From assembly GCF_000009705.1 (NCBI RefSeq), contig NC_003272.1, positions 3,990,001 through 4,022,000 on the forward strand: 32,000 nt of DNA. The letters are read 5' to 3'. Of the stretch, positions 9,184 through 32,000 are shown piece after piece (the first letter of the stretch is position 1; every line of letters begins with the position of its first letter). Under the pieces are notes generated by a model. It was not told where the DNA came from and did no database searches. It saw nothing but the letters and a program-made list of their open reading frames with translations. The DNA comes from Nostoc sp. PCC 7120 = FACHB-418. GTDB taxonomy: Bacteria > Cyanobacteriota > Cyanobacteriia > Cyanobacteriales > Nostocaceae. The position numbers were made by a program, and so were the translations under genes.

Positions 9184-10866
9184 TCAAATCCAATCTACTA
9201 TCAGCATATCTTCCATCCAAGGGAATTTAACTATGTTCAGTCCCCACGGTAGACGACTGAGAAGGATATCAATGGATTGACGCTCAATCTGGAGTTTCCA
9301 CGCACCATTATCGTTACGGGTGAGTTTGCCTTCGCGCTGTAAAAAGCCTTCGCGTAGACCGTCGGGGCTGGTATTTTTTAGGGCTTGCCAGTAATCGATC
9401 GCTGTTTGTAATAGATGTTCAGCTTCATTTAAGGCGGTGGTGGGTAAATCAATGTTACAGGCGATCGCTTGATTTAATGGCCAGCCACAAAGTAATTTCG
9501 GTAATACCAACTCATATTCGGGGGCATCGGTTTGGCGAGTTGCTAGGTAATGTAAGAGATAAATTGCCGTTTGCTGTGCTGATTCGTCACGGAAGCTTTC
9601 TTGGTCTACTAGTGCGACATCGTTGAGATATATGTGCAGAAATGGGTGCAGTAGGACTAAGCCAGCTTGATTGATGTAGATACCGGTGATTTCTTCTTCT
9701 GGTGACAAGATGGAAGTTTGCGGGTTGTTTTGAGAATCGATTTGTTGATGTTGGTTGTTTGATTCGGGTGTGGCTTTGGGAGAGGATATTGAGTTTCTCA
9801 ACGCAGAGGGGATCTGAGGTTTACGCAAAGGGTCGTTGAGGTTTGTTGAGGTTGTGGTTTCAGGTGCTGGGGGTAGAATTTGGTTGAGTGTTGTTAGCCA
9901 AGGTGTTCTGGAGTTGGTGGGGATTGTGGCTAGGATAGTTCGCAACCGTTGATATATCCCGGAATCGGGTAGTTGTGTTTGTGATTCATTGGGTTCGGGG
10001 GTGGTAGGAGTAATTTGAGATTGGTTTGGGGATGCTTCGGGTGTGATGGTGGCTTGCTGTTGCCAAGTTTGGACGAGAATAGTTAGCCAGTTGCGTATCC
10101 ACACAGTCTTGGGTAAGGGTCTTGTTGAGGAGCTAGTTTGAGGGATTTCTGCTAGTAGTAACAGCCAAGCTTGTGTGTTGAGGAACTCATAGAAGCGATG
10201 GCATTCAGCCCACTGTAGGCGATCGCCATTTTGATTTAAACTCAACGCTTGGATAATTTGTTGTCCTTGGGTGAGTAGAGTAGACCAATCAATCCAAGTG
10301 GGTTGCAATTGCAAGACTAACTGATGGCAAAAGCTTTCTGGGAACTGGGAAACCAAGCGCTGTCTGACTTGCGGATTTGTGGCTAGCAATTCTCGTAAAG
10401 GTTGCTGCCATGTCGTTTCATTTTGTATGGCTGCTTGCCAACGGGGTATCCACTGTTGCCAGTTATTAGCCTCTACCCACCAAGGTAAGCGACCATACCG
10501 TAAAAAATATAACAATATCTCCCAATCTGCCGCACTCCGATTTTGGCTGAGTATTGGGGAATTTGTCTTAGTAGTTAGGCGATTCGCTAGATAATCTCTT
10601 AGCGTTTGGTTCACAGCACTGATTAATTTAGGTATAAATTCATCTTGAATAAATTGAGGATGAATAACGCCTAAATCTACAACCACTTGATCCAATCGCA
10701 CCACCTCATCAGCTGCTACCAACTGTTCAAAAAGTTGTGCCATTGCTGGTATGCCCTGTTGTTGCAATAAGCGACTCATATCTTCTTGCAAGCTCCAGAC
10801 ATCAGCTAGTTGCCCAGTATTTAGCTCCAGTACGGTTCGTCCGATGATGTGGCGTTGTTGTGTCAT
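9184..10866 (-). CDS. cis14: CIS tape-measure protein (Afp14/Cis14-like)
   Basis: 560 aa with an ATG start; last gene of the operon. The N-terminal block IIGRTVLELNTG...VVRLDQVVVDLGVI and the C-terminal block GIYINQAGLVLLHPFLHIYL match my recollection of the CIS tape-measure family. The middle is low-complexity and P/T/Q-rich. Confidence 0.75.
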   Translation of the reverse strand: MTQQRHIIGRTVLELNTGQLADVWSLQEDMSRLLQQQGIPAMAQLFEQLVAADEVVRLDQVVVDLGVIHPQFIQDEFIPKLISAVNQTLRDYLANRLTTKTNSPILSQNRSAADWEILLYFLRYGRLPWWVEANNWQQWIPRWQAAIQNETTWQQPLRELLATNPQVRQRLVSQFPESFCHQLVLQLQPTWIDWSTLLTQGQQIIQALSLNQNGDRLQWAECHRFYEFLNTQAWLLLLAEIPQTSSSTRPLPKTVWIRNWLTILVQTWQQQATITPEASPNQSQITPTTPEPNESQTQLPDSGIYQRLRTILATIPTNSRTPWLTTLNQILPPAPETTTSTNLNDPLRKPQIPSALRNSISSPKATPESNNQHQQIDSQNNPQTSILSPEEEITGIYINQAGLVLLHPFLHIYLNDVALVDQESFRDESAQQTAIYLLHYLATRQTDAPEYELVLPKLLCGWPLNQAIACNIDLPTTALNEAEHLLQTAIDYWQALKNTSPDGLREGFLQREGKLTRNDNGAWKLQIERQSIDILLSRLPWGLNIVKFPWMEDMLIVDWI

Positions 10867-10880
10867 AGCTTACTGCTTTT

Positions 10881-13800
10881 TCAACGGGGCTTAATTACAG
10901 AAGGTGGGGTTGAGCCAACTTGTTTAGATGATGAGTAAGTCCAACCGACGATTAACATGAAAATGGCAGTACTCATGGCTAGTAGCTGGGGTAGTTTGAT
11001 TTTGGTGATGATTTCTCCTCGGTTGAGGGGAAAGAGGTTTTGTATGCGTGTGAATAGGTTATCTGGGTTGGTGCTACGGGATGGGCTAGTGTCGGTGTCA
11101 GCGTCGATAACCCGGATGATAACTTTGATGGTAGCTCCTTCTAGGCGATCGCCATTTACTTCTCTGATAGCTTGTGCTTGAATCTCATGGATACCTATAC
11201 TCGGTTGCCAGTCATCAGGCATCCGGTAAGGTGCAGTGTTGGCGGTGAGTGCTTGGCGGCTGCCATTGGGTTTGGTGTAGGTGAAAATTACACTATTAAC
11301 CTTTTCTGGCACAGTCATCGCCTCAAAGGTGTACTGGTTATTAGGATTGAAGTCTGAGAGATTGAAGGTGCGATCGCCATCCAAATTAGTACTATTTATT
11401 ACTTCATTATTACTAATTGCCAGTAAATTTACTGCACGAACTTCAGGATGAGGAATCGGGTTTTCTGTCGGCGCATCTCCGCTATCAGGGTTAGAGGTAT
11501 CTTCAACGTCTCTCACTGGCACTTCTGGTGGTGGGACGATGGTAACTCGGCGTTCCGTGTTATTGCTACAGCCTTGATTGCTGATTGTATATCTCAGTGT
11601 AATAACTTTTTCTTCCTCATCACCCAAGTTCACTGCACTGGGATTGAATTGTGGGGGAGTTGTAGGGCTAATTACATCTGCTGTGATATCTTCTTCACCG
11701 TCAAAGGCTTGGAAAGTTCCGCCTAGTTGTGTAGCGATCAGCCCTACAGGCGGATCATTATTGGTGAAGGTGTCCCGGTTTCCTGTTGATAATCGGAAGT
11801 TGGCATTGGGTACAGCAAAAATCCTCAGTTCTTGGGTGAACTTATTACTACAGCCTTGGTTGCTAATACTGTATTCCAATGTAATGACTTTTTCTCTGGC
11901 TACACCCAAGTTAACTGCACTTGGGTCGAACTGTGGGGGTGTTGTCAGGCGATTAATGACATCTGCCGAGATATCTTCTGCACCATCGCGCACTTGGAAA
12001 GTCCCGCCCGGTACTCTGGCTATCAGGTCTACGGGTTCATCATTACTACAGAATCTGGTTTTACCTTGCCCAACTTGGAAGGTAGCATTGGGTACAGCAA
12101 AAATCGTTATATCTCGGCTTAACTCATTGGTGCAGCCTTGGTCACTGGTGATGGTATACACCAAGGTAATAACTTTTTCTGTTGCTCCTCCCAAATTAAC
12201 AGCACTGGGGTTAAATTCTTGGTTATTAATGACACTGGCGGAAATATCTGTTTCACTATCAAAAGCCCGGAAATTGCCGCCTGGTTGTGTGGCTCTGAGG
12301 GTTACGGGGTTTTCGTTACTACAGAAATTTGTTTTGATTTGGAAACTGGCATCTGGTAAGGGATAGACGGTAACGCTCAGGGTGTCGTAGCTGCTTTCAA
12401 CAACGTAGGTAAAAGTGATGGCTGTTTCCGAAGTAATATCGTCGGTAATGCGGCTGGGTTGGAAATAATATTTGCCGTCTGCAAAAAAGCTACCTTCGCC
12501 TTTCAGTGTGCCACCTGTCGGGTCAAGAATAAATTCATAGCGAGTTTCATCGCCTGCACAGAAAGTAGTTCTATCTAGCAACACGATGGGGCGAGGCTGA
12601 GTTAGTACATAACTAACAGTGGGGGTCTTGCTGCTAAAACGATAGGGTAGGCAAAAATCGCCAACAACGATATCTTCACGGTTGAGTAATTCTCGACTAG
12701 TCGCTAGTTCCTGGGGTGAACCTGGGGGTAAGGAAGCGTATTTCTTGATTACCTCGGTGCGGGCTTGATAAGTAGGATCGCGATCGGCACTTAGCAGGTT
12801 TCTCACTAATTCCCGTCCATCGACGTAGACCAAAACGAATGTACCGCCTTTCGGCACACCTCCCAAGTGTTCCATCCCCGGATTATTTTGTGCGAATTTA
12901 TGGAATAGTTGCAATTCCATGATCTGTGCCAAACGTTGCTGATAAGCTGTCATCAGCCCCTTGAGTTCAAAATAATTGAGCGTATCGGCGGCTAGGCGAT
13001 CGCCCATCCTCAACTCCAGTCGATTGACGCGGATGGAGGATTCTGGAACATCCCGCAGCAAACTATAGAGGGTTTCAAAGTCTTGAAACTCTGGTTGGTT
13101 GATAATGGGGCTATTACCCTCAAAATTAACAGTAAAGAAATTCAGCGAAATAAAGCTAATGTCTGCCGTCCCTCTATTTGCTGGTAAGTCCAGTTCATCA
13201 GCTAAGGAAAATCGCAGATAATAGCTGAGGGGGTTGTTGGCTGACTCAGGTTCTACCCCATAAGTAATTTTCCCCAAAGGCAGACAAGCCAATAAATCTC
13301 CAATAATGCGCTCCTGTTCTTGGGTCAGACTGTCGCCTGATAACCCAGAAAAGTTAATTACTGTCTCAAAACGCGCAATGCGAATACCTGCGGCGTTACG
13401 CAGATATAGGCGATAGCTGTCACCGCTTTCCTTGACAAATTCATAAGCTTCTTTAACGCTGGCTCTAGCCACAATGGGGTTAAATAGTTGGTCACTTTTA
13501 ATTTCCGCCAAACTAGTCTTGTCAAAGAAAACTCGTTTGAGTGTGTAAAGAAAAACATTCCGTGACCAGCTTTCCTCATATCTTTGCCAAAGTTTTGCAA
13601 AGGTATCTTTGATGCGTCCAAAGTCTGCATTCAAATCATCGAACTGACCAGAAATATTGATATCTTGAAAACTTTGCAGATTGCCAATCTTCAGGGTAAT
13701 GACATCAAAAGCTAAATTGTAGCGCTGCTGATAGTCGAGAATCCGTTGCAAAGCCGTGGCGTTGGCTTCCCCAATATGTCCTTCAATGCGGTAAAAAGAA

Positions 13801-15311
13801 TAGTCATCTAAACGGTGCAGTAAGTCAGAATTGGGGGTGATATTGGCGTTGTTGGGATAAAAGTAAGCCGGATGGGACTGACTGCGCCCTTTACGGTAAG
13901 TATCATAACTCCAGTATTGATACAACTGTGGATAATTGAGGTAATAAGGAATTGCCTGTTGGCTCAAGGTTGCAGCACGGTCTTTACTGGGGGTGATTTT
14001 TAGGGGCGTGTCATAAAAGGGTAACAGATAAAAACTATCCGCAGCGCACAGACGTACGAGGCGATCGTAAAGGAAGCGTACTTGTTTGACACGTAACTGA
14101 TTGCCGTTATAAATGGGGGATTGGCTAAAATTGCTCCGATATGGAGAATTTAGGGCATATACCTCTGGCTTTTGGTTGGGAAGTGGGACTAGTCCCAGCA
14201 TGAGGAACTTGGGAAAGCGTCGGGTATCTGGTGTAGCGTCGTCCATCAAGTCAAAAGCCGACTCTGCTAATTCCCGAAAAGCAGATACTAACTGACTGAG
14301 GTAGTCATAGAAGTATTGTAAGGCGTACTGGGCTTCGATTTGGGAAATAGGCGATCGCCTATTTTCTGCCGACGAGCCAGACACAATATCGCTGAGACGT
14401 TGATTAAGTAGGGTTTTCAACCCGGTGAAATCAGAGGGTGCAGGATTAAAAGACGAGAAAAAAGGCGAAAACAGCCGGAAAAGATTTGGGAATGTACGAT
14501 CAATCTCATCAATTGCTTGCAGACATACTTGTTGGTAGCCTTTAAGAAAGGCATCGTAGTCAACAATATTCGATAAACGAATGACAGGTGGTGTCTCCAG
14601 GGTATAACCGAAGCGTCGCACTTGGGGAAAGAAATTCTGGAAGAAAGAAGATTGAGCCTGGAATATGTCATTAATGCTGAAGTCTCGCCACTGTTGGGGT
14701 AAAGGCTCTCTGGAAAACCCTTGTTGCAGCAAAGCCTCAGCGCTCAACTTCTCCGGTACAGAACGGGGTAAGAGAAAATAGCGTAGGCGGAAATTCCTGT
14801 CTTTACCTGTATCATCACAATCGAGTAAACAAGAGTCCCGTTGCTGATCCTGAAGTTCATATACTACTACTAACGTCTGGTCAGCCAGAAACCTAGCAAA
14901 AGCATTCTCATCTGGTAAATTCTTGAGCGCTAACCGATTATTCCCTTCCTGTTCAAAGAGTTCTACAAGTTGATCAGTTGATGCGGCTGTTTGTTCTTCA
15001 CTAGGCGCGAACAAAGCCGAGGGTACAGACACTCCACTTTGATAATGAGTTAATTTTGTTTCCGCCAGAGAAATTATATATCCCTCAGAAGTAATACCAC
15101 ACCCTGGCGCAACAACTATGTTCACATCCCCCGGCTGATAGATGCTACTCACCTCCATCCCAGCCACAATTCCCATACCAATCAGATAAACACGAGTTAA
15201 CCGATTCTGCTCATCAAGATAGGTAACAACACGATTCAGGTCTTTATTAGTCAAAACCTGATTAGGCGTAAAAATAGGATAACTGTTAGGGATGGTAATG
15301 GTAGTAGTCAC
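10881..15311 (-). CDS. Large CIS-associated distal or baseplate-peripheral protein with 3 tandem Ig-like repeats, a C-terminal beta-sandwich-like domain and a C-terminal transmembrane anchor
   Basis: The track ORF extends to 15332 through a TTG inside a dispersed repeat. A GTG at 15311, preceded by GGAG with 9-nt spacing, is the more likely start. Three ~94-aa repeats lie at nt ~11540-12375. Hydrophobic helix LLAMSTAIFMLIVGWTY at nt 10935-10985, 17 residues from the C-terminus. Confidence 0.85.
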   Translation of the reverse strand: MTTTITIPNSYPIFTPNQVLTNKDLNRVVTYLDEQNRLTRVYLIGMGIVAGMEVSSIYQPGDVNIVVAPGCGITSEGYIISLAETKLTHYQSGVSVPSALFAPSEEQTAASTDQLVELFEQEGNNRLALKNLPDENAFARFLADQTLVVVYELQDQQRDSCLLDCDDTGKDRNFRLRYFLLPRSVPEKLSAEALLQQGFSREPLPQQWRDFSINDIFQAQSSFFQNFFPQVRRFGYTLETPPVIRLSNIVDYDAFLKGYQQVCLQAIDEIDRTFPNLFRLFSPFFSSFNPAPSDFTGLKTLLNQRLSDIVSGSSAENRRSPISQIEAQYALQYFYDYLSQLVSAFRELAESAFDLMDDATPDTRRFPKFLMLGLVPLPNQKPEVYALNSPYRSNFSQSPIYNGNQLRVKQVRFLYDRLVRLCAADSFYLLPFYDTPLKITPSKDRAATLSQQAIPYYLNYPQLYQYWSYDTYRKGRSQSHPAYFYPNNANITPNSDLLHRLDDYSFYRIEGHIGEANATALQRILDYQQRYNLAFDVITLKIGNLQSFQDINISGQFDDLNADFGRIKDTFAKLWQRYEESWSRNVFLYTLKRVFFDKTSLAEIKSDQLFNPIVARASVKEAYEFVKESGDSYRLYLRNAAGIRIARFETVINFSGLSGDSLTQEQERIIGDLLACLPLGKITYGVEPESANNPLSYYLRFSLADELDLPANRGTADISFISLNFFTVNFEGNSPIINQPEFQDFETLYSLLRDVPESSIRVNRLELRMGDRLAADTLNYFELKGLMTAYQQRLAQIMELQLFHKFAQNNPGMEHLGGVPKGGTFVLVYVDGRELVRNLLSADRDPTYQARTEVIKKYASLPPGSPQELATSRELLNREDIVVGDFCLPYRFSSKTPTVSYVLTQPRPIVLLDRTTFCAGDETRYEFILDPTGGTLKGEGSFFADGKYYFQPSRITDDITSETAITFTYVVESSYDTLSVTVYPLPDASFQIKTNFCSNENPVTLRATQPGGNFRAFDSETDISASVINNQEFNPSAVNLGGATEKVITLVYTITSDQGCTNELSRDITIFAVPNATFQVGQGKTRFCSNDEPVDLIARVPGGTFQVRDGAEDISADVINRLTTPPQFDPSAVNLGVAREKVITLEYSISNQGCSNKFTQELRIFAVPNANFRLSTGNRDTFTNNDPPVGLIATQLGGTFQAFDGEEDITADVISPTTPPQFNPSAVNLGDEEEKVITLRYTISNQGCSNNTERRVTIVPPPEVPVRDVEDTSNPDSGDAPTENPIPHPEVRAVNLLAISNNEVINSTNLDGDRTFNLSDFNPNNQYTFEAMTVPEKVNSVIFTYTKPNGSRQALTANTAPYRMPDDWQPSIGIHEIQAQAIREVNGDRLEGATIKVIIRVIDADTDTSPSRSTNPDNLFTRIQNLFPLNRGEIITKIKLPQLLAMSTAIFMLIVGWTYSSSKQVGSTPPSVIKPR
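11540..12375 (-). repeat. Three tandem ~282-nt coding repeats (Ig/PKD-like, Cys-containing modules)
   Basis: Repeat boundaries are marked by 'tttgctgtacccaatgc' (reverse complement, near 12104 and 11822), giving a 282-nt period. Protein repeats: FAVPNA.F......F..N..PV.L.A...GGTFQ..DG.EDI.ADVI....PPQF.PSAVNLG...EKVITL.Y.ISNQGCSN. Confidence 0.85.
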
Positions 15312-15380: not shown

Positions 15381-18300
15381 TTAATCATTAGCAGTTCCTA
15401 ACGCAGTCTGATTGAGGATAGCGGGATTATTATCAGCACTACTTTCTTCGCAATCATGTAACGTAGCTTTGGGGTACACATTCCGCAGTTGAGGCAGGAT
15501 TTTCAACAGACGGTTAAGCGTCCCTGTCAAATCACAGGCGGCGTTTTCGCAACTCTCCAGCGCCAATTGCTCTAACCAGTGACGATAAGCAAGCTCAAAA
15601 TCTCGCATTTGGCGGACATTCACCCAGGCAATTTTCAGAGCGATGTGTGCTGGAGCCTCTAGACGCAGAGTGCGTTCAACAAATCGGCGGAAAGGAATAT
15701 CACGAAAGCGTTGCGGCCAGTAGGGTAAAACGATTGTCACCCAAAAAGAATAAGGATCTGTTCTCGCTAAAAGATAGGGGTCGTCTGGTTCTGTATTGAC
15801 ATCCTCCGGCGTTACCAAAATGGGTAAAAAGCCATCGCCGGCTGTTAAGTCGGGGAGCTTGGTTCGGGGACGTAAAAGAATATGCTCTAGGAGATGGAAG
15901 CCTTCGTCATTGCTGTATTTTTGAATTTCTGCGATCGCTGCGGTGCGTTCTTCTCTACTGTTGTAATATTGCGCCGCAAAAATTTCGTCTTTACCTTCAT
16001 TGGTCAGTTCCCAGCCGTAAACACCATCATCACTATCAATCAGTCGGAAGTTCTCTTCATCCTGAGCCAGTTCCATCAAGGTGTTACCCTGTTCCCATGC
16101 GATATCCTCACTGGTGTAACGCTGTGTTCCTTGCAAAATCAACTGGTTGTCTGGGTTGTAAATTTGACTTATGTATGCTAATGAATCTAATGAATTGGTA
16201 CTAATCCTTAAACGAGCCGTGCGAACCAACAATAATAAATGCTCAATCGCTGCATCCCTTTCTGCTTCTGATGTATAGGTTTGGGTATGGATAGCGGCTA
16301 CACTGTTAGTATCGCGGGGACGGCTCAAAATCCGAAAGCCAAACTCCTTATTAGTTGTTGTAGGATTAATTACCCCTGTTTCAAATAGTGTACCTAAAAC
16401 ATCTTGGTAAAAGCGATCGCGGGCTGTAGTCTCATCACCATATATTTGGATACTTTGCAGTATAGTTGTTTCCTGGCGGTCTACGAGGCGATAACGGTAG
16501 CCAGAGGTGGGTGTTGTTGCTGCTTCTATAACTAAAAATGGTTCAAGAGCATTTAGGCGCTGGAAGGTAAGCAAGCGATCGCTTTCTGTGGTTGTTACTG
16601 CTAAAAGTTTGCCTGTCTTGTCGGTAATTCCTAAACTATAGGTCTGTCCAGTGTGATCCTTGGCTGGGCTGAGGTAGCGGTTGAGGTAGCGGAGGTTTTC
16701 GGCGAACTCACTAGCAGCTTGCCAAGCCAAATACTCTGTTGCGTATGAACTAATACCGCGTAATAAAGTTTGACTATTAGTAATGTCGTTGATAACAAAG
16801 ACATAACCATTGGTGATAGTCTCTATGGCAAACTTGTATTGATTCTGATTCGCTTGAATGTGAGTTAACCAGCGTTGTAAGCTTAGTTCTCTTTCTAACT
16901 CAGTTGGGAAATGGTGAGTATATTCACTAAGGAGACTGCCTTGATGATCAACTAAGCCGTAGCCGTAATAGGTGAATTTTTGCGGAGTCGTCCCTTGATC
17001 CTGACCTAACGTAATATTGCGGTAATTCTGCACGTCTTGAATTAGCCTCAAGCTAATAACCCCAGCGTCTACGGCTTCGGTGCGGGAAAAATAGCGTTGT
17101 ACACCAGTAAAGGTAATTACGCCAGAGTTGAGGGGAATTTGTAAGCGGAAGGAATATAAGTCCTCATCTGTCGGCTGGGTGATAACTAAATTTTGCAGGG
17201 CGGTATCATCTAGCTGGGATAACTGCGTTAATAAACTTTGTAGCAGTGGTTCTAAAGCTGCGGCTCGTTCTTTAGTGGAGGGAAAAAAGCGATCGCTCCT
17301 AACTATACTCTGATTTTGGGTATCTAATATTTCCCAACTGTAATGATAATAATACTTATATGAAAGTCGTTTGTAAAAGTTAGGGTGTAGGGCAAATAGC
17401 AATAATTTATCTTGGTCAGCCTGGGCTTGTTCTGTGGTGGCGTATCTCTGTTTACTAGTTAAGGTTAAGTCATCAGAACTAAAATCTATACTTAAAAATA
17501 AATTACGACTATCTTTATCTACACGATAGTGGCTGAGGTGACGACGACGCACATCATCAATCCCCAGCAACCGCAACACCCGCTTTTTGAAACCCGCTAC
17601 ATTATCGGTATCCCAGACAGCATGACAATCATAGTAATTGTAAGCCCGGAAGCGATCGCGGCTTAAGGTGGGATAGTCTTGTAAAAATTGGGCTTTGTCG
17701 TGAATAATTTCGGTTTCTTGGGTCGCCTTGTTGTTACGGGTGGCAAACATCTGATAATTCAACAAGACATAATCACTAAAAGACTCAGAAAAACGAGCTA
17801 GTAAATGATCTAAAAAACGATTACGGCGATCGCGATAAGTTTCCGGTGCTTCATCCAACACATCAAGATAGTTATCAGGGATAATTTTTTCTATTTCAGG
17901 AAAATCCAGCTTTTGGGTAAAGTAAGTACGCTGCTTCTCCTGAAGACGGGTAGCATAATCGTTTTGTTGGGGTTGAGTCACATCGACTTCCCAAGAAAAC
18001 AAGTCACGAATATGAGAGAGTTGAGCAAGGTAGCTTGCTAATAACTGATCAAAAAAGACGAGATAAGCTTTTAGTTGTAAAGCCTGAGCTTTGCGTAAAG
18101 CTGGGACAGTTGGTGGTAGTCCGTCTTCACTGATGCCGTAGGTCGTGGGAAAATCATGATGAATAGAATAATGGTCGGCTAAGTCGTAATAACTCCCCTT
18201 CGGAACAGGAATATCCAACTCATCTCTGTCGCGGATGGTTTTGATATAAGCTGCTTGTTGTTCATAATAGCGGCGTTCCACTTCTTCCTCATCTACACCG

Positions 18301-24149: not shown

Positions 24150-24150
24150 A

Positions 24151-24538: not shown

Positions 24539-26308
24539 TTAATTAATCATTACTAATGAACCTTTTAGAACAGCGATCGCACTACTGGAAACTTCTGCGC
24601 CGGCGTTACCTTGGGCTTTGAATTGGGCGTTGGCTGCGATATTCACATTCAAGCCCTCAATGCTGACATCTTGAGTGGCTTTGAGGGTCAGTTTACCTGT
24701 GGCTTCTAGGGTGATGTCTTTGGGGCTATTCATGGCAATACCGCGATCGCTCATAGCGAAGGTGTTGCCGTTTTGGTCGGTGAGGGTGATACCTTTGTCT
24801 TCGTCGGAGATGGTGACTTTATTACCTCCTGGGGTTTGTAGGGTAATTATTTTCTTGTCGTCATCAAAAGTTAGCTGCATTTGAGAGCGCGTAAAAAACC
24901 CTTTGCGATGGTTTTCGGCGGTAGCGCGTAAAGGGGCTGGTTTAGCACTACTATTCAACATCCCTAAAACTACAGGATCACGGGGGTCATCGTTGAGAAA
25001 ACCGAGTATTACCTCATCGCCGACTTCGGGACGAAAGAAGGAACCGCGATTATTCCCCGCGTCTAGGGTGGCAATTCGCGCCCAAATCCCCTCGGCTTGA
25101 GCATCGATAATCGGCACTTTAACGAGGATGCGGTCTTCGCCGTTGGGGTCGTCTTGCAACTGCACCACCACCCCAATCTGTAAGCCATTTACCCCAGGGA
25201 GTAACCCCGCAGCAGGTTTATCAATAATGTCGACTTCTTGATAAAACCATTGGGGAGGAAGTCCCATCTGTATATGAGTGTCCCAAGCTCCCCCGACTAT
25301 TTCATGGCGAATACCGGAAACATAGGCGAGTCCATTAAAGCGATCGCCTACTCCCGCCAACTGAATCAACACATCGACCTTAGCATCAGGGTAGCCTTTG
25401 GTTTTCACCCGTCCCTGAATTTTGGCTAATCTACTCTTGAGTAGTTGAGCATCCGCCCAAGCCTTGAGTTCTGGTTCAGCCACCAAACCACTGTGACGCA
25501 GTTCCAATGCACTCAAGTCGATTACTTGCGCTAATTGCCGTCCTGATAAATTGCCTTGATTATTAACCGTAGGTTCGCTGGCTTCAGCTTCAACTAAGGC
25601 CTGATCAGCATAATTCCAAGAGGTTGCCTTTACTGCTTGATATTGGTGACGGGCATCCATCGCCGCTTCCAACTCTAGGAGATTGACACCGTAAGTTAAT
25701 GTAATCTGGGGAGCGCCGCTTGTGTTAGGAGCCTTCACCTTAATTTTTTCGTCTTGTGCCACCACAATCTGTCCGTTCATTTCCGCCCGTGACAGAATAA
25801 AATCCCAATCAGTGGCGTAATACTGGACAATTTCCGGATGCTGCACCTGGGTAGCTGCCACATCTGCCGATAAACTGTGTTGAGCGATAATTTCGGCGAT
25901 CGCATCACTATCTTTTGTATCCACAAAATAGCGATTATGACGACCAACAGTCAGTTTAGTAGCCAGACCCCGACAATCAAGCATCAGCATCGAGTCACCA
26001 TTAGCAGTCACTTTCAAGGCGTGTTTGACAATCAATCCTTGAAAAATCTTCTGATCTGAGCCGTCATACCCAGCCGCAATTTCCACCTCTTGACCAGGAA
26101 CTAAGTCAGCCCCCTCACTAGCTGCAAAAGTCTCATCCGCCGCCGCACCATCACGCAGTATAATTCGCGCCGTTGGTACACGGTTGACAATCTGATTCAC
26201 CGTTATAGATAGCACCGTGTAATCATTGGTGATGTCCTTACCATCAGATAAAAGTTTGAAGGTAGCGACATCATAGAGAGAATTTCTGGGGATGATGCGA
26301 TCGTTCAT
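24539..26308 (-). CDS. cis8: VgrG/gp27-gp5-like spike protein (Cis8)
   Basis: 589 aa. OB-fold block GVVVQLQDDPNGEDRILVKVPI...GIWARIATLDAGNNRGSFFRPEVGDEVILGFLNDDPRDPVVLGML. C-terminal beta-helix repeats (KVTISDEDKGITLTDQNGN...ITLEATGKLTLKATQDVSIEG). The start overlaps the upstream stop as ATGA (26305-26308). Confidence 0.95.
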   Translation of the reverse strand: MNDRIIPRNSLYDVATFKLLSDGKDITNDYTVLSITVNQIVNRVPTARIILRDGAAADETFAASEGADLVPGQEVEIAAGYDGSDQKIFQGLIVKHALKVTANGDSMLMLDCRGLATKLTVGRHNRYFVDTKDSDAIAEIIAQHSLSADVAATQVQHPEIVQYYATDWDFILSRAEMNGQIVVAQDEKIKVKAPNTSGAPQITLTYGVNLLELEAAMDARHQYQAVKATSWNYADQALVEAEASEPTVNNQGNLSGRQLAQVIDLSALELRHSGLVAEPELKAWADAQLLKSRLAKIQGRVKTKGYPDAKVDVLIQLAGVGDRFNGLAYVSGIRHEIVGGAWDTHIQMGLPPQWFYQEVDIIDKPAAGLLPGVNGLQIGVVVQLQDDPNGEDRILVKVPIIDAQAEGIWARIATLDAGNNRGSFFRPEVGDEVILGFLNDDPRDPVVLGMLNSSAKPAPLRATAENHRKGFFTRSQMQLTFDDDKKIITLQTPGGNKVTISDEDKGITLTDQNGNTFAMSDRGIAMNSPKDITLEATGKLTLKATQDVSIEGLNVNIAANAQFKAQGNAGAEVSSSAIAVLKGSLVMIN

Positions 26309-27197: not shown

Positions 27198-27350
27198 CTA
27201 TCTTTCTGACTTTTCTTGAAGAATAGCTAACACCTGTTCCACACAAGCAGCAATAATTGCTGATTGGTCGCCAGCACCCCCAGTACCTTGATTTTGTCCC
27301 CCCTCATTCACCGAAGCCTTAATCACTAGTTCTCTAATTTCCAACGGCAT
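27198..27350 (-). CDS. Small 50-aa CIS protein (positional equivalent of Afp6/Pvc6; DUF5908-like N-terminus)
   Basis: Not in the supplied track because it is under 60 aa. My own translation of the reverse complement gives MPLEIRELVIKASVNEGGQNQGTGGAGDQSAIIAACVEQVLAILQEKSER*. ATG at 27350, TAG at 27198-27200. It lies between the tube-like and LysM genes, 48 nt after the tube-like gene's stop. Confidence 0.6.
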   Translation of the reverse strand: MPLEIRELVIKASVNEGGQNQGTGGAGDQSAIIAACVEQVLAILQEKSER

Positions 27351-27398
27351 AAATTTATCCTCTTGTCAGTTGTCGTTAGTTATTCTCATCACTCCCCA

Positions 27399-27902
27399 CT
27401 ATTTCAAAGTTTCAAAATAGCTGTAATTCAACTCCAGCGATTCCACAGCAATAGAGTTTTGTTCAGCGTTGAACTCAGAAACCGACCATTTTTTAGGCCA
27501 AGCATTAATTACCTTCCAAGTCATCAGAGGTGCGATGGTCGAAGACCCGCCTGTGGCGATCGCTTCTGGTGGTTGATTAGGATCACTCCTCTCGATATGC
27601 AGCAGCCGTACCAACAAGTTCATCGGGCGAATATCAAAGTTGAGAATGGCATCCATACACCACTTCACCATCTGGGAATCATTCACTAAACCGCGCTTTA
27701 ACACCAGTGGATCATATTTAGTTCGCACCGGTAAAATATGTTCAAAACGATTTTCACCCCCTTCTTTGAGGGTTTCAGTCTGCATATCAACACTAAGTCC
27801 AGTCACACTCTGAAACCGGGTTTCAACCACATCCTTATCTAGGTTTTCACCCTGAAAAACGACCTCGAAAAAGAAACTAACTGGTGGATAGGTGCGAATC
27901 AT
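27399..27902 (-). CDS. Tail-tube paralog (Afp5/Cis5-like, gp19 family)
   Basis: 167 aa. PPVSFFFEVVFQG....RFQSVTGLSVDMQTETLKEGGEN is a gp19-type tube motif. It begins 11 nt downstream of the main tube gene. Confidence 0.85.
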   Translation of the reverse strand: MIRTYPPVSFFFEVVFQGENLDKDVVETRFQSVTGLSVDMQTETLKEGGENRFEHILPVRTKYDPLVLKRGLVNDSQMVKWCMDAILNFDIRPMNLLVRLLHIERSDPNQPPEAIATGGSSTIAPLMTWKVINAWPKKWSVSEFNAEQNSIAVESLELNYSYFETLK

Positions 27903-27913
27903 AGGAAATTAGT

Positions 27914-28345
27914 TTAGCCATTTTGAATAGTTAACCCTTCATGGGCAACTTCAATACTTTCTATCGCCACTTCGTTACCGTCACCTTTGAGGTCTGTTGA
28001 TTGTACTTTCGTAGGCCAAGCACGATTAACTTTCCAAACAACGACTGGTTCATGCTTTTCATTCAACAGACTAATCGTCAAATCACGACGCTCAATCGTG
28101 TTGAGCGCAACAGTATTCCACCATTTGTAAAAATCGTTATCCCCTTGGAATGTCCCCCGCTTCATCGTGATGTTGCTAAATTTCTGCATACCAGGCATCT
28201 TGAGTTTGTGGTACTGCGGTAAGTTACCTTCACGGTACTCTATAACCTCAGTTTCCACATCTAGTCCAGAAACTTCCGTGAACCCTAGACGAGAACCACC
28301 CCAATCGACCTGGAAATGAAACTTTGGTAAAGGATATTCAGCCAT
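27914..28345 (-). CDS. cis1: Tail-tube protein (T4 gp19 family; Cis1)
   Basis: 143 aa. YPLPKFHFQVDWGGSRLGFTEVSGLDVETEVIEYREGN is the classic gp19/Afp1 signature. Confidence 0.95.
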   Translation of the reverse strand: MAEYPLPKFHFQVDWGGSRLGFTEVSGLDVETEVIEYREGNLPQYHKLKMPGMQKFSNITMKRGTFQGDNDFYKWWNTVALNTIERRDLTISLLNEKHEPVVVWKVNRAWPTKVQSTDLKGDGNEVAIESIEVAHEGLTIQNG

Positions 28346-28459
28346 GATTATTACATCCGTTAATTTTGAAATTTATATAGTTTAGGACTTACCTATTCAG
28401 GTTGTCTGGTAAGGGTATAGGGGTATAAGGATTTTAAACATTAACACCCCTCTCCCAAA

Positions 28460-29914
28460 TCAACTTTCCTGCATCTTGTGAGAGAACTTGAGAATAATAA
28501 ACTCCGCAGGACGGACTACTGCCATGCCAATCTCTACAATCATGCGACCTTCGAGAATATCTAGAGCCGTCATGGTTTCGTTGAGTCCAATTTTGACGTA
28601 AAAAGCTTGTTCAGGTTTGGCTCCGGCTAAGGCTCCTGCACGCCATTGGAGGGTGAGGAAGTTTTCAATCATGGCTTTTACCTTAGTCCAGGTGTTGGCA
28701 TCGTTCGGCTCAAAGACAAATGGCTCACTACCTTTTTTGATGGATTCTTCTGCCATGTTGAAGAAGCGGCGCACAGAAACATAGCGCCACTCATTATCAT
28801 TACCTGCCAAGGTACGAGCGCCCCAGATTAAGGTTCCTTTGCCGGTGAAGGCGCGAATGGCATTGATAGATTTACCTGTGGGATGGACGTTGAGATTATT
28901 CTGCTGCTCGTTAGTGATTTTGAGGACAGGTTTGATGACCGAACTTAAGGCCACATTGGCTGGCGCTTTCCACACACCACGGGTGTTGTCGGTTCTGGCA
29001 TATTGTCCCACCACCAAAGGAGAAGGGGGAAGTATCAGAGGCAATTGATCAATAGCAGACTCAATGAGTGCATATTGAATACCATCACCACCATTGGCAG
29101 GATTGTAACCAGCCATTGTGAGAGTGTCCTGTTCTTCTGCACCTCCGTTGACGCTGCGGAAAATTGTTACAGCATCTTCTTGATAAAAGTAGTTAAATAT
29201 AGTTTCAATATCAGGAGCGTAACAAGCACCATATTTGAGGTTGTCCTGGGGCAGACTTAAATCTCGAAAAGCATTGGAAGCGCCCACAATTGCATTAGCT
29301 GGGATTGGTCTTGTCGCGGGTAATTTTAAATCCATGACTGTGAAGCGGTCTTGTAAATTAGCGCACTGCTCTAGTGCTGCACTCATCAAAGCAGCGTAGT
29401 TTTCATCACTGAGACTCTGACTTTCAGGAAATACTAATAGGGTGACTTCATCTTCTTTTGCCACCTCAGCTAATCCATTTTGTAGGGCTTCTAGTTGAAT
29501 CGTGCCAGTGTTACTCATAGGGCCGACTGACACTATGTAGCAGGGACCACCACCATTGGCAAAGTAAGCCTGCATGGAGTAATACAGGTTATGAGGACTA
29601 GGACTAGTAATCCTGGCGCTGGCTTTACGTTCTGTTAGATTACCTCTGCTATCGGTCGTATCTTGGATGACTACCTGAATGGTCGTCTCATTGATGGCTT
29701 TACCAAAAAATTGCTCATATTCCAGCAGCGAAGTGATTCTGACTGGTCGCAAAATCAGATTGTCAGCATCAGTATGAAAGTTTTCCACACCAACCTTGGC
29801 TATCTGGGTATAGCCAATAAAGGCGGGAATGGCAGTTTCTACTTGAGCAATGGAGGGAGGAAATTTGGATATTTCCTCAATATAGACCCCTGGAGTTTTG
29901 TAAGTACTTGGCAT
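28460..29914 (-). CDS. cis2: Contractile tail sheath protein (Cis2)
   Basis: 484 aa. N-terminus MPSTYKTPGVYIEEISKFPPSIAQVETAIPAFIGYT and C-terminal block IWGARTLAGNDNEWRYVSVRRFFNMAEESI are typical of phage and CIS sheath proteins. Confidence 0.95.
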   Translation of the reverse strand: MPSTYKTPGVYIEEISKFPPSIAQVETAIPAFIGYTQIAKVGVENFHTDADNLILRPVRITSLLEYEQFFGKAINETTIQVVIQDTTDSRGNLTERKASARITSPSPHNLYYSMQAYFANGGGPCYIVSVGPMSNTGTIQLEALQNGLAEVAKEDEVTLLVFPESQSLSDENYAALMSAALEQCANLQDRFTVMDLKLPATRPIPANAIVGASNAFRDLSLPQDNLKYGACYAPDIETIFNYFYQEDAVTIFRSVNGGAEEQDTLTMAGYNPANGGDGIQYALIESAIDQLPLILPPSPLVVGQYARTDNTRGVWKAPANVALSSVIKPVLKITNEQQNNLNVHPTGKSINAIRAFTGKGTLIWGARTLAGNDNEWRYVSVRRFFNMAEESIKKGSEPFVFEPNDANTWTKVKAMIENFLTLQWRAGALAGAKPEQAFYVKIGLNETMTALDILEGRMIVEIGMAVVRPAEFIILKFSHKMQES

Positions 29915-29931
29915 ATTTCTTGTTAATTGAA

Positions 29932-31131
29932 TTACAGATAAATATCAGAAAAAATACGAGCAATTCTTTGGCTGCCATCAGTTTCCGGTTGAATCAAGGT
30001 AATACTGGGGGCAGGCAAAGGTCTATCCTGGCAGTCGTTGAGTAGACTATCGGGACGTTGACGTAAACCAATAGGACGGGCGGTGGCGTAGGTGTGTGTA
30101 TCAATTAGGTTGAAGTAACTGGGCAGGTTCGCGGCGCTACAACCATGCGGTTGTTCATAGCGATAGCGCCAGCGAGTTGCGCGGTTCTTAAAACGAATGA
30201 CATAGGTTTTTGGTTGGATGAAAGTTTGTCCGGCGCTGGCTTGCAGTAGGGAGAAAGCCGATGGTACTAGTTCGGGATTGAGGATAACTTCTACTAGGGC
30301 AAATGCTTCTGGCAGACTATTATCTACGAGTACAAACTCAGCTACTTGGGTGTCATTCTCCAACAAGCGATAATGACCAGGTGTTTGTCCAACGAAGTTG
30401 AGGCTGGTGCTGAATGGTTCACCTGATTTATGGGTATCGGGAACGATGACATCAATAGCCCAAGATTCCTGCTCATTAGTATTGACTAAAGTAAAGTTAT
30501 ATGTATTATCTGGATTGGCGTTGGTGATAACTTGGGTGCGGTAGGTTCCCTGTCTTGGTAGATGGTCTAATTCGGAAACATACTGACTAGCTGGGAGACT
30601 ATCCCAATCACTAGGATTTGGTATGTTAGTAGCATTCCCTTGATAGGTGAGGGATTCTAGGGTTTTGTCTGCATGGGTGACTAGCTGCCCAAGCTGATAT
30701 TCGTTGTTAGTTGTGTAAGCTGATAAAGGTTGGGTGAGAAATAGAGCGTGTCCTTCGTTCCCAGAGAGGTTAGAGAAATAATAAATTTGATTGCGGCTGT
30801 TAATGAGGGACAGATTGGTAAAATTGGCAAAATAGCGATCGCTCACTACTAACCAAAATGTCAGTCTATAAACTCGGTCTATCGGGAAAATCGTCGGAAA
30901 CTGTCCCGATGGCGCTGCGTTGACATTAGCAAAAAGACTCGCCCCATAAAGTTGAGGACGGAACACCCAACGGAGATTAGCCAGCACCCGCAAACATTCC
31001 TGGGTAGGCACTAACGCCAAGGTACGAGAAATATCATAATTGTTGGGCAATGATCCAGGCGTATTCGGCTGTCCCAAATAAAAATCATGCCACAGTTCTA
31101 AGTTGAGGATTTTCTTATATAGAATCTTCAT
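29932..31131 (-). CDS. Conserved-position hypothetical CIS protein (399 aa) between the cap and sheath genes
   Basis: ATG ORF whose stop lies 17 nt upstream of the sheath gene start. No motif recognised. Confidence 0.7.
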   Translation of the reverse strand: MKILYKKILNLELWHDFYLGQPNTPGSLPNNYDISRTLALVPTQECLRVLANLRWVFRPQLYGASLFANVNAAPSGQFPTIFPIDRVYRLTFWLVVSDRYFANFTNLSLINSRNQIYYFSNLSGNEGHALFLTQPLSAYTTNNEYQLGQLVTHADKTLESLTYQGNATNIPNPSDWDSLPASQYVSELDHLPRQGTYRTQVITNANPDNTYNFTLVNTNEQESWAIDVIVPDTHKSGEPFSTSLNFVGQTPGHYRLLENDTQVAEFVLVDNSLPEAFALVEVILNPELVPSAFSLLQASAGQTFIQPKTYVIRFKNRATRWRYRYEQPHGCSAANLPSYFNLIDTHTYATARPIGLRQRPDSLLNDCQDRPLPAPSITLIQPETDGSQRIARIFSDIYL

Positions 31132-31239
31132 ACTTCGTCATAAGTACTCAGAGACTTGAAAAATTGCTGGGTAGGGAGCGACGAGTGCTAAGTCCTGAGT
31201 CAGAAATTCCTCCCAATCCCTAATCCCTTCTATTTGAAA

Positions 31240-31818
31240 TCACTCATTAATGTAGATTTCAGTAATGGTGCTACCTTCAGCTTGTCGTTTTGGAGCCTCT
31301 AAGGAGAGAATCCGAGCGCGATACAGAACAAAAGGAACTTGTTTACCTCCTAACGCTCCCCAAAGATGGTTAAGCTGCTCAAAAGTAAGGCTATAAAGGT
31401 CTGGTAATATCCTTAAGTCCCGCGATATACCACCGATACCAGGTGTAGTGGTAAAAGAAAGCTCTTTTTGCCACTGAAAAAATTCCACCACCCGTGAAAG
31501 CAATCTCAGAGATGTTTCGTATTGATTGTGTAACGCCGAAAAAAGGATAAATAAGTTGAGATTAACTGGAGGATTTTGGTAAATAGTGCGTCCGTTATCC
31601 AAACGATAATGAGGCGAATTTTTTAAGGTTGTCTCCTCCTGTAGATTCACAAGGCTCATGACTACATGACCATTGATCTGGTTGTTTTGACCACCGAGTT
31701 CTTCAGCCATTGCAATATTTTCGATGATCACAACTTGGCTAAGACCAAGTTCTGGCTCAAATTCAAGAATGTAGCGTTGCAAAGCAACCTGTATCAGCCT
31801 CATTGCATCGGATATCAT
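31240..31818 (-). CDS. cis16: DUF4255 (Pvc16_N) tail terminator/cap protein (Afp16/Cis16-like)
   Basis: The track ORF begins at a TTG (31839); an ATG at 31818 gives MISDAMRLIQVALQRYIL..., the usual DUF4255 N-terminus. VNLNLFILFSA and the C-terminal LYRARIL blocks are consistent with this family. Confidence 0.8.
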   Translation of the reverse strand: MISDAMRLIQVALQRYILEFEPELGLSQVVIIENIAMAEELGGQNNQINGHVVMSLVNLQEETTLKNSPHYRLDNGRTIYQNPPVNLNLFILFSALHNQYETSLRLLSRVVEFFQWQKELSFTTTPGIGGISRDLRILPDLYSLTFEQLNHLWGALGGKQVPFVLYRARILSLEAPKRQAEGSTITEIYINE

Positions 31819-32000
31819 AGGAAACCCCCAATGAATCAACTGGATACCTGAGTTTTTTTGGGAATTTGGGATTATAAGTTATGGCAACAAGAGTAAATAT
31901 TAATAAATTAGAAAGTTTTCTCCTGTTTCAGTAAAATTTGTCCTCAATTAACTGAGCAGATTAGCCTTTTTTTATCCAGATTGTGTCAAATGCAACAATT

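What the first reader, a model, noticed from the sequence alone, without database searches (positions are those of the whole stretch)
9184..31839. Near-complete contractile injection system operon with no phage replication or packaging genes
Fifteen co-directional genes cover cap, sheath, two tube paralogs, a small Afp6-position protein, LysM initiator, VgrG, PAAR, gp25, baseplate J, two further giant baseplate or distal proteins, a small membrane protein and the tape measure. Several junctions are translationally coupled: an ATGA overlap at 26305-26308, a GGAGG inside the PAAR stop region at 24150-24160, and gaps of 2, 11, 14 and 17 nt elsewhere. No capsid, portal, terminase, integrase or lysis genes occur in 32 kb, which argues for a tailocin/eCIS-type machine rather than a prophage. 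Two expected parts are missing from the window: the AAA+ ATPase (Afp15/Cis15) and an adenovirus-like Afp13-type tail fibre.
Basis: partly seen in the sequence, partly recalled or inferred. Interest (0 to 1): 0.65.

Follow-up and report, generated by a model that had tools for sequence, protein, structure and literature searches.

The report
Known thylakoid-anchored injection system of Anabaena
The 15-gene phage-tail-like operon is real, but it is the already published and structurally solved thylakoid-anchored contractile injection system (tCIS, all3313-all3327) of the cyanobacterium Anabaena/Nostoc sp. PCC 7120, so the finding is correct but not new.

Summary
Fifteen co-directional minus-strand genes (9184-31839) encode cap, cap adaptor, sheath, tube, tube initiators, spike plug, VgrG spike, PAAR, gp25, three giant baseplate or crown proteins, a small membrane-anchored fibre and the tape measure. 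The stated junctions are all present. There are no phage head, packaging or lysis genes in the window or in the 9 kb beyond it.

The locus is not new. Twelve of the products match full length, at identity-level scores, the chains of PDB 7B5H/7B5I (All3314-All3327), so this is the Anabaena sp. PCC 7120 tCIS of Weiss et al. 2022. That work shows the particles stay in the cell, anchored in thylakoid membranes by Cis13 and Cis12. The "eCIS/tailocin" reading is therefore only partly right.

The "small membrane protein" is the tail-fibre-like Cis13. The adjacent convergent genes alr3311 and alr3312 (4744-9129) are the published candidate effectors.

The AAA+ ATPase is absent locally. An ortholog of the CIS-linked cyanobacterial ATPase lies about 0.2 Mb away in the same genome, paired with a conserved small membrane protein. 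Alr3311 ends in an AID/APOBEC-like deaminase domain.

Verdict: already known, low interest, with small unpublished-looking side observations.

The parts
31240..31818 (-). cis16A (all3327), cap, 192 aa
   Evidence: Pvc16_N 1.5e-38. Full-length match to PDB 7b5i_AA All3327, 409 bits. The mechanical ORF starts at TTG 31839; the published start is ATG 31818.
29932..31131 (-). cis16B (all3326), cap adaptor that terminates the sheath, 399 aa
   Evidence: No Pfam hit. PDB 7b5i_AB All3326, 1-399/1-399, 914 bits.
28460..29914 (-). cis2 (all3325), contractile sheath, 484 aa
   Evidence: Phage_sheath_1C 4e-13. PDB All3325 full length, 1084 bits.
27914..28345 (-). cis1 (all3324), inner tube, 143 aa
   Evidence: Phage_T4_gp19 3.3e-50. 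PDB All3324 full length.
27399..27902 (-). cis5 (all3323), tube initiator layer, 167 aa
   Evidence: Phage_T4_gp19 2.6e-39. PDB All3323 full length.
27198..27350 (-). cis6, spike plug, 50 aa
   Evidence: DUF5908 3.2e-19. Role taken from PMC8894136.
26305..27009 (-). cis7 (all3321), tube initiator, 234 aa
   Evidence: CIS_tube 7.8e-51. PDB All3321 full length, 524 bits. AlgoCIS homolog is named 'LysM domain-containing protein', 2.7e-52.
24539..26308 (-). cis8 (all3320), VgrG-like spike, 589 aa
   Evidence: Phage_base_V 4.5e-21. PDB All3320 full length, 1295 bits. ATGA overlap with cis7.
24151..24453 (-). cis10, PAAR spike tip, 100 aa
   Evidence: PAAR_motif 2.7e-25. SalCis10 9e-41.
23700..24149 (-). 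cis9 (all3318), gp25-like baseplate wedge, 149 aa
   Evidence: GPW_gp25 3.4e-23. PDB All3318 1-149. GGAGG lies 5 nt upstream of ATG 24149.
19956..23651 (-). cis11 (all3317), baseplate J-like protein with cage and other extra domains, 1231 aa
   Evidence: Baseplate_J 3.4e-6. PDB 7b5h_AH All3317 matches ORF residues 16-1246, 2798 bits.
19489..19953 (-). cis13 (all3316), tail-fibre-like thylakoid anchor with a C-terminal transmembrane helix, 154 aa
   Evidence: 154/154 identical to PDB 7b5h_AE. Hydrophobic window aa 122-140, mean Kyte-Doolittle 2.12. Weak CBM_5_12 hit.
15381..19388 (-). cis12 (all3315), baseplate wedge with a membrane-contacting extension, 1335 aa
   Evidence: PDB 7b5h_AD All3315 1-1335, 3060 bits. 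Homology to Alg12, Pvc12 and Afp12 is confined to about aa 5-623.
10881..15311 (-). cis19 (all3314), crown trimers, 1476 aa
   Evidence: PDB 7b5h_AA All3314 matches ORF residues 8-1483, 3357 bits.
9184..10866 (-). cis14 (all3313 by position), tape measure, 560 aa
   Evidence: CIS_TMP 3.6e-129, full profile.
4744..8766 (+). alr3311 by position: candidate effector with DUF4157/eCIS_core, a long linker and a C-terminal AID/APOBEC-like deaminase domain, 1340 aa
   Evidence: eCIS_core 1.9e-31, aa 224-300. H1192-A-E ... P1225-C-G-A-C motif. The family profile hits APOBEC3C at 2.1e-5. Named as a putative effector in PMC8894136.
8809..9129 (+). alr3312 by position: small candidate cargo protein, 106 aa
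   Evidence: Shares the pre-domain motif with Alr3311 aa 136-176 (BLASTP 1e-8). No Pfam hit at E<=10. Found by MS in purified particles according to PMC8894136.

Best explanation
The window carries the thylakoid-anchored contractile injection system (tCIS) gene cluster all3313-all3327 of Anabaena/Nostoc sp. PCC 7120 or a near-identical strain, plus its two convergent candidate effector genes. Published for this locus: a baseplate (Cis9, Cis11, Cis12) forms around a Cis8 spike, with the tip density probably a single copy of PAAR-like Cis10. The spike is plugged by Cis6. Cis7 and Cis5 start the tube, and Cis1 tube and Cis2 sheath polymerise over 22-23 layers (the length-setting role of the Cis14 tape measure is inferred from the family). 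Cis16A and Cis16B cap the tube and the sheath. The particle sits in a pore of the outermost thylakoid stack, facing outward. It is held there by the transmembrane helix of trimeric Cis13 and by an extension of Cis12. Cis11 forms a cage and Cis19 a crown around the spike. Contraction was seen only after stress-induced lysis, in 'ghost cells'. Inferred here: Alr3311, and perhaps Alr3312, are the cargo. Alr3311 would act as a zinc-dependent cytidine deaminase toxin. Loading or assembly would use a Cis15-type AAA+ ATPase encoded about 0.2 Mb away.
For: Twelve of the 15 products match PDB 7B5H/7B5I chains of PCC 7120 end to end. All3316 is 154/154 identical, and the others score 2.1-2.3 bits per residue, about the same as that identical pair. 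Gene count, order, strand and the convergent effector pair match the published description. Window 19932-32000 is 100% identical to a cyanobacterial assembly, GCA_014696765.1. The cyanobacterial HIP1 octamer GCGATCGC occurs 34 times against 0.18 expected, at equal density inside and outside the operon. Structure and in situ localisation are experimental results of PMC8894136. For the inferred steps: the eCIS_core hit; the HAE..PCxxC motif kept in 86 of 100 relatives; APOBEC profile hits; and the Cis15 ortholog and its CIS linkage in other cyanobacteria.
Against: Nothing contradicts the identification. I was not given the strain name, so PCC 7120 itself versus a clonal relative such as a FACHB strain is not settled. 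For the inferred steps, Foldseek found no deaminase or any other significant PDB match for the Alr3311 C-terminal model. Pfam deaminase hits are below gathering thresholds. Weiss et al. found no target organism and no clear phenotype. The remote ATPase has not been tied to the tCIS experimentally.
Confidence: 0.96

Rival explanations
1. A classical extracellular CIS (Afp/PVC-like) or R-type tailocin that is released by lysis and binds targets through tail fibres.
For: The core gene set and the DUF4157 effector are those of eCIS. The closest solved relative outside cyanobacteria is the released AlgoCIS. Ghost cells do expose the particles to the environment.
Against: [quoted passage not shown] Cis13 is a 154-aa transmembrane anchor, not a receptor-binding fibre. 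No lysis cassette lies in the window or its flanks.
Confidence: 0.05
2. The tail module of a contractile-tailed prophage or prophage remnant.
For: Sheath, tube, gp25, baseplate J, spike and tape measure are all phage-tail homologs.
Against: There is no capsid, portal, terminase, integrase or lysis gene in 32 kb or in the next 9 kb. The CIS-specific families Pvc16_N, DUF5908, CIS_tube, CIS_TMP and eCIS_core are present. HIP1 density equals that of the flanks, so the region looks long resident. The assembled particle has no head.
Confidence: 0.01
3. The PilT/T2SSE-type ATPase and KaiB-domain genes just beyond coordinate 32000 replace the missing Cis15 ATPase of this system.
For: They are co-directional with the operon, and the KaiB-domain gene ends 476 nt upstream of cis16A. 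They occupy the position that an AAA+ gene holds in Calothrix anomala.
Against: The protein is not homologous to the AAA+ ATPase. Among 30 related CIS loci, the pair appears only in PCC 7120-type contigs. The same genome keeps a true ortholog of the CIS-linked AAA+ gene elsewhere.
Confidence: 0.05

Closest known systems
tCIS of Anabaena sp. PCC 7120 (all3313-all3327; Weiss et al. 2022, PMC8894136; PDB 7B5H, 7B5I)
   Same: Everything tested is the same. The 15 genes have the same order and strand. Twelve products match the PDB chains full length at identity-level scores. The two convergent effector genes are the same.
   Different: No difference was detected. Only the strain label is unverified.
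AlgoCIS of Algoriphagus machipongonensis (eCIS subtype Ib; PMC8894135; PDB 7AEB, 7AEF)
   Same: It has the bipartite cap (16A/16B), the Cis6 plug and the same core order. It is the strongest non-cyanobacterial matches for Cis12 (2.3e-116), Cis11 (8.3e-121), Cis8 (1.4e-170) and Cis7.
   Different: AlgoCIS is released as an extracellular particle. It lacks the Cis13 transmembrane anchor. Its Cis12 is about 400 aa shorter.
Afp (Serratia entomophila) and PVC (Photorhabdus) eCIS
   Same: They share homologous sheath, tube, spike, gp25, Afp11/12, tape measure and cap N-domain. They also load cargo into the tube.
   Different: Afp and PVC have three sheath paralogs, a long adenovirus-like Afp13 fibre and an in-cluster AAA+ ATPase (Afp15/Pvc15, the payload loader), and they are released. 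Here there is one sheath, a 154-aa membrane-anchored fibre, a Cis19 crown, a split cap and no ATPase in the cluster.
Cytoplasmic CIS of Streptomyces coelicolor (PMC10066040, PMC12237407)
   Same: It stays inside the producer, acts on stress and is linked to cell death rather than to classical secretion.
   Different: It floats free in the cytoplasm and depends on the membrane protein CisA. It is not anchored in an internal membrane system.

Membership tests
tCIS (thylakoid-anchored CIS, Weiss et al. 2022) | Complete CIS core: sheath, tube, tube initiators, spike, PAAR, gp25, Cis11/12 wedge, tape measure | tested here: met
   Pfam hits and PDB matches.
tCIS (thylakoid-anchored CIS, Weiss et al. 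2022) | Short tail-fibre-like Cis13 with a C-terminal transmembrane helix | tested here: met
   154/154 identical to All3316. Hydrophobic stretch aa 122-140, mean KD 2.12.
tCIS (thylakoid-anchored CIS, Weiss et al. 2022) | Cis12 with a C-terminal extension beyond the Afp12/Pvc12 core | tested here: met
   1335 aa. Homology to Alg12, Pvc12 and Afp12 is limited to about aa 5-623. Full-length match to All3315.
tCIS (thylakoid-anchored CIS, Weiss et al. 2022) | Cis19 crown protein | tested here: met
   Match to All3314 over 1476 aa, 3357 bits.
tCIS (thylakoid-anchored CIS, Weiss et al. 2022) | Particles anchored in thylakoid membranes in situ | not testable with these tools
   Shown by cryoET for the identical locus in PMC8894136.
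Extracellular CIS of Afp/PVC type | AAA+ ATPase (Afp15/Pvc15) encoded in the cluster | tested here: not met
   None in the window or in the 9 kb beyond 32000. The Anabaena cell is blank in Supplementary Table 1. An ortholog exists about 0.2 Mb away.
Extracellular CIS of Afp/PVC type | Long receptor-binding Afp13-type tail fibre | tested here: not met
   The only fibre-like protein is the 154-aa membrane-anchored Cis13.
Extracellular CIS of Afp/PVC type | Release of particles into the medium | not testable with these tools
   The published fractionation found sheath and tube almost only in the cell pellet.
Extracellular CIS of Afp/PVC type | DUF4157/eCIS_core toxin gene next to the cluster | tested here: met
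   eCIS_core 1.9e-31 in the 1340-aa ORF at 4744-8766. The layout matches that described by Geller et al..
Contractile-tailed prophage | Capsid, portal, terminase, integrase or lysis genes contiguous with the tail genes | tested here: not met
   No such family in any larger ORF of the window or its flank.
Type VI secretion system (i-iii) | TssB/TssC two-part sheath, TssJLM membrane complex and ClpV, with no tape measure or Cis6 | tested here: not met
   There is a single phage-type sheath. CIS_TMP and DUF5908 are present. No T6SS membrane-complex families were hit.
AID/APOBEC-like deaminase toxin domain (C-terminus of Alr3311) | H-[AV]-E ... P-C-x-x-C zinc-binding motif, conserved in relatives | tested here: met
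   H1192AE and P1225CGAC. Kept in 86 of 100 relatives. Invariant in alignment A1.
AID/APOBEC-like deaminase toxin domain (C-terminus of Alr3311) | Significant similarity to curated deaminase families or solved deaminases | tested here: inconclusive
   Pfam SNAD4/APOBEC_N at 22 bits is below the gathering scores of 25-27. One relative is above threshold. Of 31 profile hits in PDB, 28 are APOBECs, best 2.1e-5. Foldseek on the AF2 model (pLDDT 80.8) gave no significant hit.

The most novel reading that the evidence does not exclude
The PCC 7120 tCIS is not ATPase-less. An unlinked Cis15-type AAA+ gene about 0.2 Mb away serves this machine as loader or assembly factor. That gene is always paired divergently with a conserved ~168-aa membrane protein, and in other cyanobacteria the pair sits next to CIS or DUF4157 effector genes. 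The main cargo, Alr3311, would be an AID/APOBEC-like nucleic-acid deaminase toxin with no recognisable immunity gene beside it. That would give concrete handles on the still unknown function of tCIS, whether self-killing or killing of grazers.
Probability: 0.4. Interest if true: 0.35.

Novelty: already known. Interest (0 to 1): 0.1.

Why it matters
The operon itself adds nothing. Its structure (2.8-2.9 A), cellular location and gene assignments were published in 2022. The check still has some value. The side observations could help with the open question of what tCIS does. They offer a candidate loader ATPase with a membrane partner outside the cluster, and a predicted enzymatic activity for the main candidate effector. 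Both are testable in a genetically tractable strain.

Tried and rejected
- Rfam at gathering thresholds found no RNA family in the window.
- Sigma-70 promoter and intrinsic terminator scans gave fewer sites than shuffles: 22 against 31.5 and 16 against 23.1 promoters, and 11 against 14.1 and 10 against 12.4 terminators. They say nothing about operon boundaries.
- NCBIfam gave no useful hit for Alr3311, Alr3312, Cis16B, Cis13, Cis16A or Cis14.
- A single-sequence PDB search with the Alr3311 C-terminus found nothing. The word-indexed homolog search found only one relative. The exhaustive HMMER search was needed to find the family.
- Foldseek against PDB with a good AF2 model found no deaminase. 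I therefore rest the deaminase call on the motif, the profile hits and the secondary-structure order, and mark it as inferred.
- I considered whether the PilT-type ATPase and KaiB-domain pair beyond the window substitutes for Cis15. I rejected this because it is not homologous, is not CIS-linked elsewhere, and a true ortholog exists.
- I checked whether the 455-aa gene beside the remote ATPase is conserved with the 455-aa ORF near the Calothrix ATPase. It is not; the equal length is coincidence.
- Pfam found no LysM domain in Cis7.
Full report
**1. Observation**

The span 9184-31839 holds fifteen co-directional ORFs on the minus strand. Pfam assigns most of them:
- Pvc16_N, 1.5e-38
- Phage_sheath_1C, 4e-13
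- two Phage_T4_gp19, 3.3e-50 and 2.6e-39
- DUF5908, 3.2e-19 (the 50-aa ORF at 27198-27350)
- CIS_tube, 7.8e-51
- Phage_base_V, 4.5e-21
- PAAR_motif, 2.7e-25
- GPW_gp25, 3.4e-23
- Baseplate_J, 3.4e-6 (in the 1246-aa ORF)
- CIS_TMP, 3.6e-129 (in the last gene)

Three ORFs (399, 1335 and 1483 aa) have no significant Pfam hit.

I read the junctions base by base. ATGA lies at 26308-26305. GGAGG lies at 24159-24155, inside the end of the PAAR gene and 5 nt before an ATG at 24149.

**2. No phage head or packaging genes**

The other larger ORFs of the window encode:
- a pyridine-nucleotide disulphide oxidoreductase (177-1358)
- a TonB-dependent receptor (1999-4095, minus strand)
- a 1340-aa protein with an eCIS_core/DUF4157 domain (4744-8766, plus strand)
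- two small ORFs without hits

An exact-protein look-up of the 399-aa product returned contigs that extend past coordinate 32000. Window 19932-32000 is 100.000% identical to one of them, GCA_014696765.1 contig JACJQP010000002.1. Beyond the window lie genes for a KaiB-domain protein, a PilT/T2SSE-type ATPase, a small ORF, a DEAD-box helicase, a pentapeptide-repeat protein and ABC transporter components. None of these is a capsid, portal, terminase, integrase or lysis gene.

**3. Identity**

A search of the PDB sequence set gave the answer.
- The 154-aa ORF is 154/154 identical to chain 7b5h_AE, 'All3316 protein'.
- The 399-aa ORF matches All3326 over 1-399.
- The 1335-aa ORF matches All3315 over 1-1335.
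- The 1483-aa ORF matches All3314 from its residue 8.
- The 1246-aa ORF matches All3317 from its residue 16.
- A concatenated query matched All3327, All3325, All3324, All3323, All3321, All3320 and All3318 end to end.

These other matches score 2.1-2.3 bits per residue, about the same as the pair shown to be identical. I therefore infer identity or near identity throughout.

These are the chains of the thylakoid-anchored contractile injection system of Anabaena sp. PCC 7120. Weiss et al. [quoted passage not shown] The window reproduces that layout exactly.

The cyanobacterial HIP1 octamer GCGATCGC occurs 34 times against 0.18 expected. Its density is about 1.1 per kb inside the operon and 1.0 per kb outside. 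This fits a long-resident chromosomal locus of a cyanobacterium.

**4. What each gene is**

Using the published nomenclature, the minus-strand order is:
- cis16A (cap)
- cis2 (sheath)
- cis1 (tube)
- cis5 (tube initiator)
- cis6 (spike plug, the 'Afp6-position protein')
- cis7 (tube initiator)
- cis8 (VgrG spike)
- cis10 (PAAR)
- cis9 (gp25)
- cis11 (baseplate J-like, with cage and two more extra domains)
- cis12 (baseplate wedge with extension)
- cis19 (crown)
- cis14 (tape measure)

The deposited sequences imply later starts than the mechanical ORFs for four genes: cis16A (31818), cis9 (24149), cis11 (23651) and cis19 (15311).

**5. How it works**

The following is shown experimentally for this locus in PMC8894136.
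- Particles of about 119 nm have 22 tube and 23 sheath layers.
- Six narrow connectors are Cis13 trimers whose C-terminal helix enters the membrane. Deleting that helix releases the particles.
- Six wide connectors are the Cis12 extension.
- Sheath and tube proteins stay in the cell pellet.
- Contracted particles were seen only in stress-induced ghost cells.

The biological role is not resolved. No target organism was found. The CIS mutant showed only a tendency towards more ghost cells with an intact cytoplasmic membrane.

My sequence check agrees with the anchoring parts. Cis13 has a hydrophobic stretch at aa 122-140. Cis12 resembles Alg12, Pvc12 and Afp12 only over its first ~620 residues.

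**6.

The reading as a 'tailocin/eCIS-type machine' is wrong as a mode of action.

The 'missing Afp13-type fibre' is present in a reduced, membrane-anchored form (Cis13).

The 'missing AAA+ ATPase' is correct for the window and for about 9 kb on each side. The Anabaena column of the authors' Supplementary Table 1 is blank at Afp15/Pvc15.

**7. The ATPase, followed further**

In the closest non-identical locus, Calothrix anomala FACHB-343 (sheath 78% identical), a 448-aa AAA (PF00004, 1.3e-26) gene lies directly upstream of cis16A and is co-directional with it. It is Cdc48/p97-like by PDB comparison. Homologs also flank cis16A in two other cyanobacteria-like loci.

A homolog search with the Calothrix protein returned a 448-aa protein, P0161. 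It is 76% identical, is named from Anabaena sp. FACHB-709, and also occurs on a 6,413,771-bp contig.

P0161 is encoded on the same contig as the window's cluster, at 292,454-293,800. On that contig cis16A starts at about 72,942 and cis14 ends at about 95,576. The ATPase gene is therefore about 197 kb beyond the tape-measure end.

Orthologs in four further genomes all lie next to CIS genes or eCIS_core effector genes:
- Calothrix sp. NIES-2100
- Tolypothrix tenuis PCC 7101
- Nostoc carneum NIES-2107
- Synechococcus sp. PCC 7336

In five Nostocales loci, a 160-172-aa protein is encoded divergently next to the ATPase gene. It is 42-47% identical to the PCC 7120-type copy and has one strong hydrophobic helix.

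Pvc15 is the payload loader in PVC (PMC10097599). By inference, the remote pair is a candidate loader or assembly module of the tCIS. I found no paper that says so, but my literature access is partial.

**8. The effectors**

The 1340-aa protein at 4744-8766 has eCIS_core at aa 224-300, including HELTH. A linker of about 850 residues with no detectable family follows, then a C-terminal domain with H1192-A-E and P1225-C-G-A-C separated by 30 residues.

Evidence for a deaminase domain:
- Pfam gives sub-threshold hits to SNAD4, APOBEC_N and NAD1 (E about 2e-4).
- An exhaustive HMMER search found 100 relatives, mostly at the C-termini of long proteins. One of the nine I scanned against Pfam also carries eCIS_core.
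- Of those relatives, 86 keep the motif.
- In an alignment of 27 sequences, H, A, E, P, C and C are invariant.
- A profile of that alignment hits APOBEC3C at 2.1e-5, and 28 of its 31 PDB hits are AID/APOBEC deaminases.
- An AlphaFold model (pLDDT 80.8, pTM 0.76) has the strand and helix order of the deaminase core, with both motifs at helix N-termini.

Evidence against: Foldseek found no significant PDB match for that model. I leave this as an unresolved discordance.

The layout of DUF4157, a long linker and a C-terminal toxin, including a deaminase example (EAT11), is known from Geller et al. 2021 (PMC8213781).

The 106-aa protein at 8809-9129 has no Pfam hit even at E<=10. It does share with Alr3311 the short motif that precedes the DUF4157 domain (BLASTP 1e-8). 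The paper states that both proteins contain DUF4157. By my search, only the larger one carries the domain itself.

**9. Verdict**

The finding is a correct recognition of a real system that is already known in atomic detail. Novelty is 'already known' and interest is low.

Three items look unreported in the literature I could search, where 'alr3311' occurs in one paper only:
- the remote Cis15 ortholog with its membrane partner
- the deaminase assignment of Alr3311
- the absence of a detectable DUF4157 domain in Alr3312

All three are modest, testable additions, and none is a new kind of system.

Noticed in passing
window 8161-8766 (+), aa ~1140-1340 of the 1340-aa ORF at 4744-8766: The C-terminal domain of the DUF4157 effector (alr3311 by position) carries a cytidine-deaminase zinc motif, H1192AE...P1225CGAC. 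The motif is conserved in 86 of 100 relatives. A family profile hits APOBEC3C/G/F/H. Foldseek on a pLDDT-81 model found no deaminase. The activity is not mentioned in the tCIS paper text I read.
   Followed up: yes
window 8809-9129 (+): The 106-aa ORF (alr3312 by position) has no eCIS_core/DUF4157 hit even at E<=10, although the tCIS paper says it contains DUF4157. It shares only the ~40-residue motif (PFF..KL.VG.P.D.YE.EA.A.A..V) that precedes the domain in Alr3311. It could be a leader-only cargo or a truncated effector.
   Followed up: partly
L036 10001-11347 (+) and 9298-9804 (-); GCA_014696765.1 contig JACJQP010000002.1 at 292454-293800: The same genome encodes a 448-aa AAA+ ATPase that is 76% identical to the one adjacent to cis16A in Calothrix anomala. 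It lies about 197 kb beyond the cis14 end of the cluster. It is paired divergently with a 168-aa predicted membrane protein that is conserved (42-47% identity) beside the ATPase in five Nostocales loci. In four other cyanobacterial genomes the ATPase sits next to CIS or eCIS_core genes.
   Followed up: yes
L001 6614-8837 (+), which is 295-2518 nt beyond window coordinate 32000: A PilT/T2SSE-type ATPase (432 aa, with a proline-rich N-terminus) and a 254-aa protein with a C-terminal KaiB domain lie directly upstream of cis16A and are co-directional with it. Among the 30 related CIS loci fetched, the pair was seen only in PCC 7120-type contigs. It is probably unrelated to the CIS.
   Followed up: partly
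window 19489-19953 (-); L007 20270-20758 (+): Cis13 has a weak CBM_5_12 (carbohydrate-binding module) hit at aa 43-66: 24.2 bits against a cut-off of 26.2. Its Calothrix ortholog passes the cut-off at 28.8 bits. It is odd to find a carbohydrate-binding-like module in a fibre that anchors to thylakoid membrane.
   Followed up: no
window, 34 sites from 654 to 30842: The HIP1 palindrome GCGATCGC occurs 34 times against 0.18 expected. Its density is similar inside the CIS operon (25 sites in 22.7 kb) and outside it (9 sites in 9.3 kb). This suggests the operon is long adapted to its cyanobacterial host.
   Followed up: yes
window 1413-1718 (+) and 4096-4743: A 101-aa ORF has no Pfam or NCBIfam hit. 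A 648-nt intergenic region lies between the divergent TonB-dependent receptor gene and the effector gene. It may hold the effector promoter. Neither was analysed further.
   Followed up: no
L041 4986-5126, L042 4780-4920, L044 4134-4274: A called 46-aa ORF recurs upstream of the small-membrane-protein and AAA+ pair in three Nostocales genomes. I did not compare the sequences, and it was not called in the PCC 7120-type locus.
   Followed up: no
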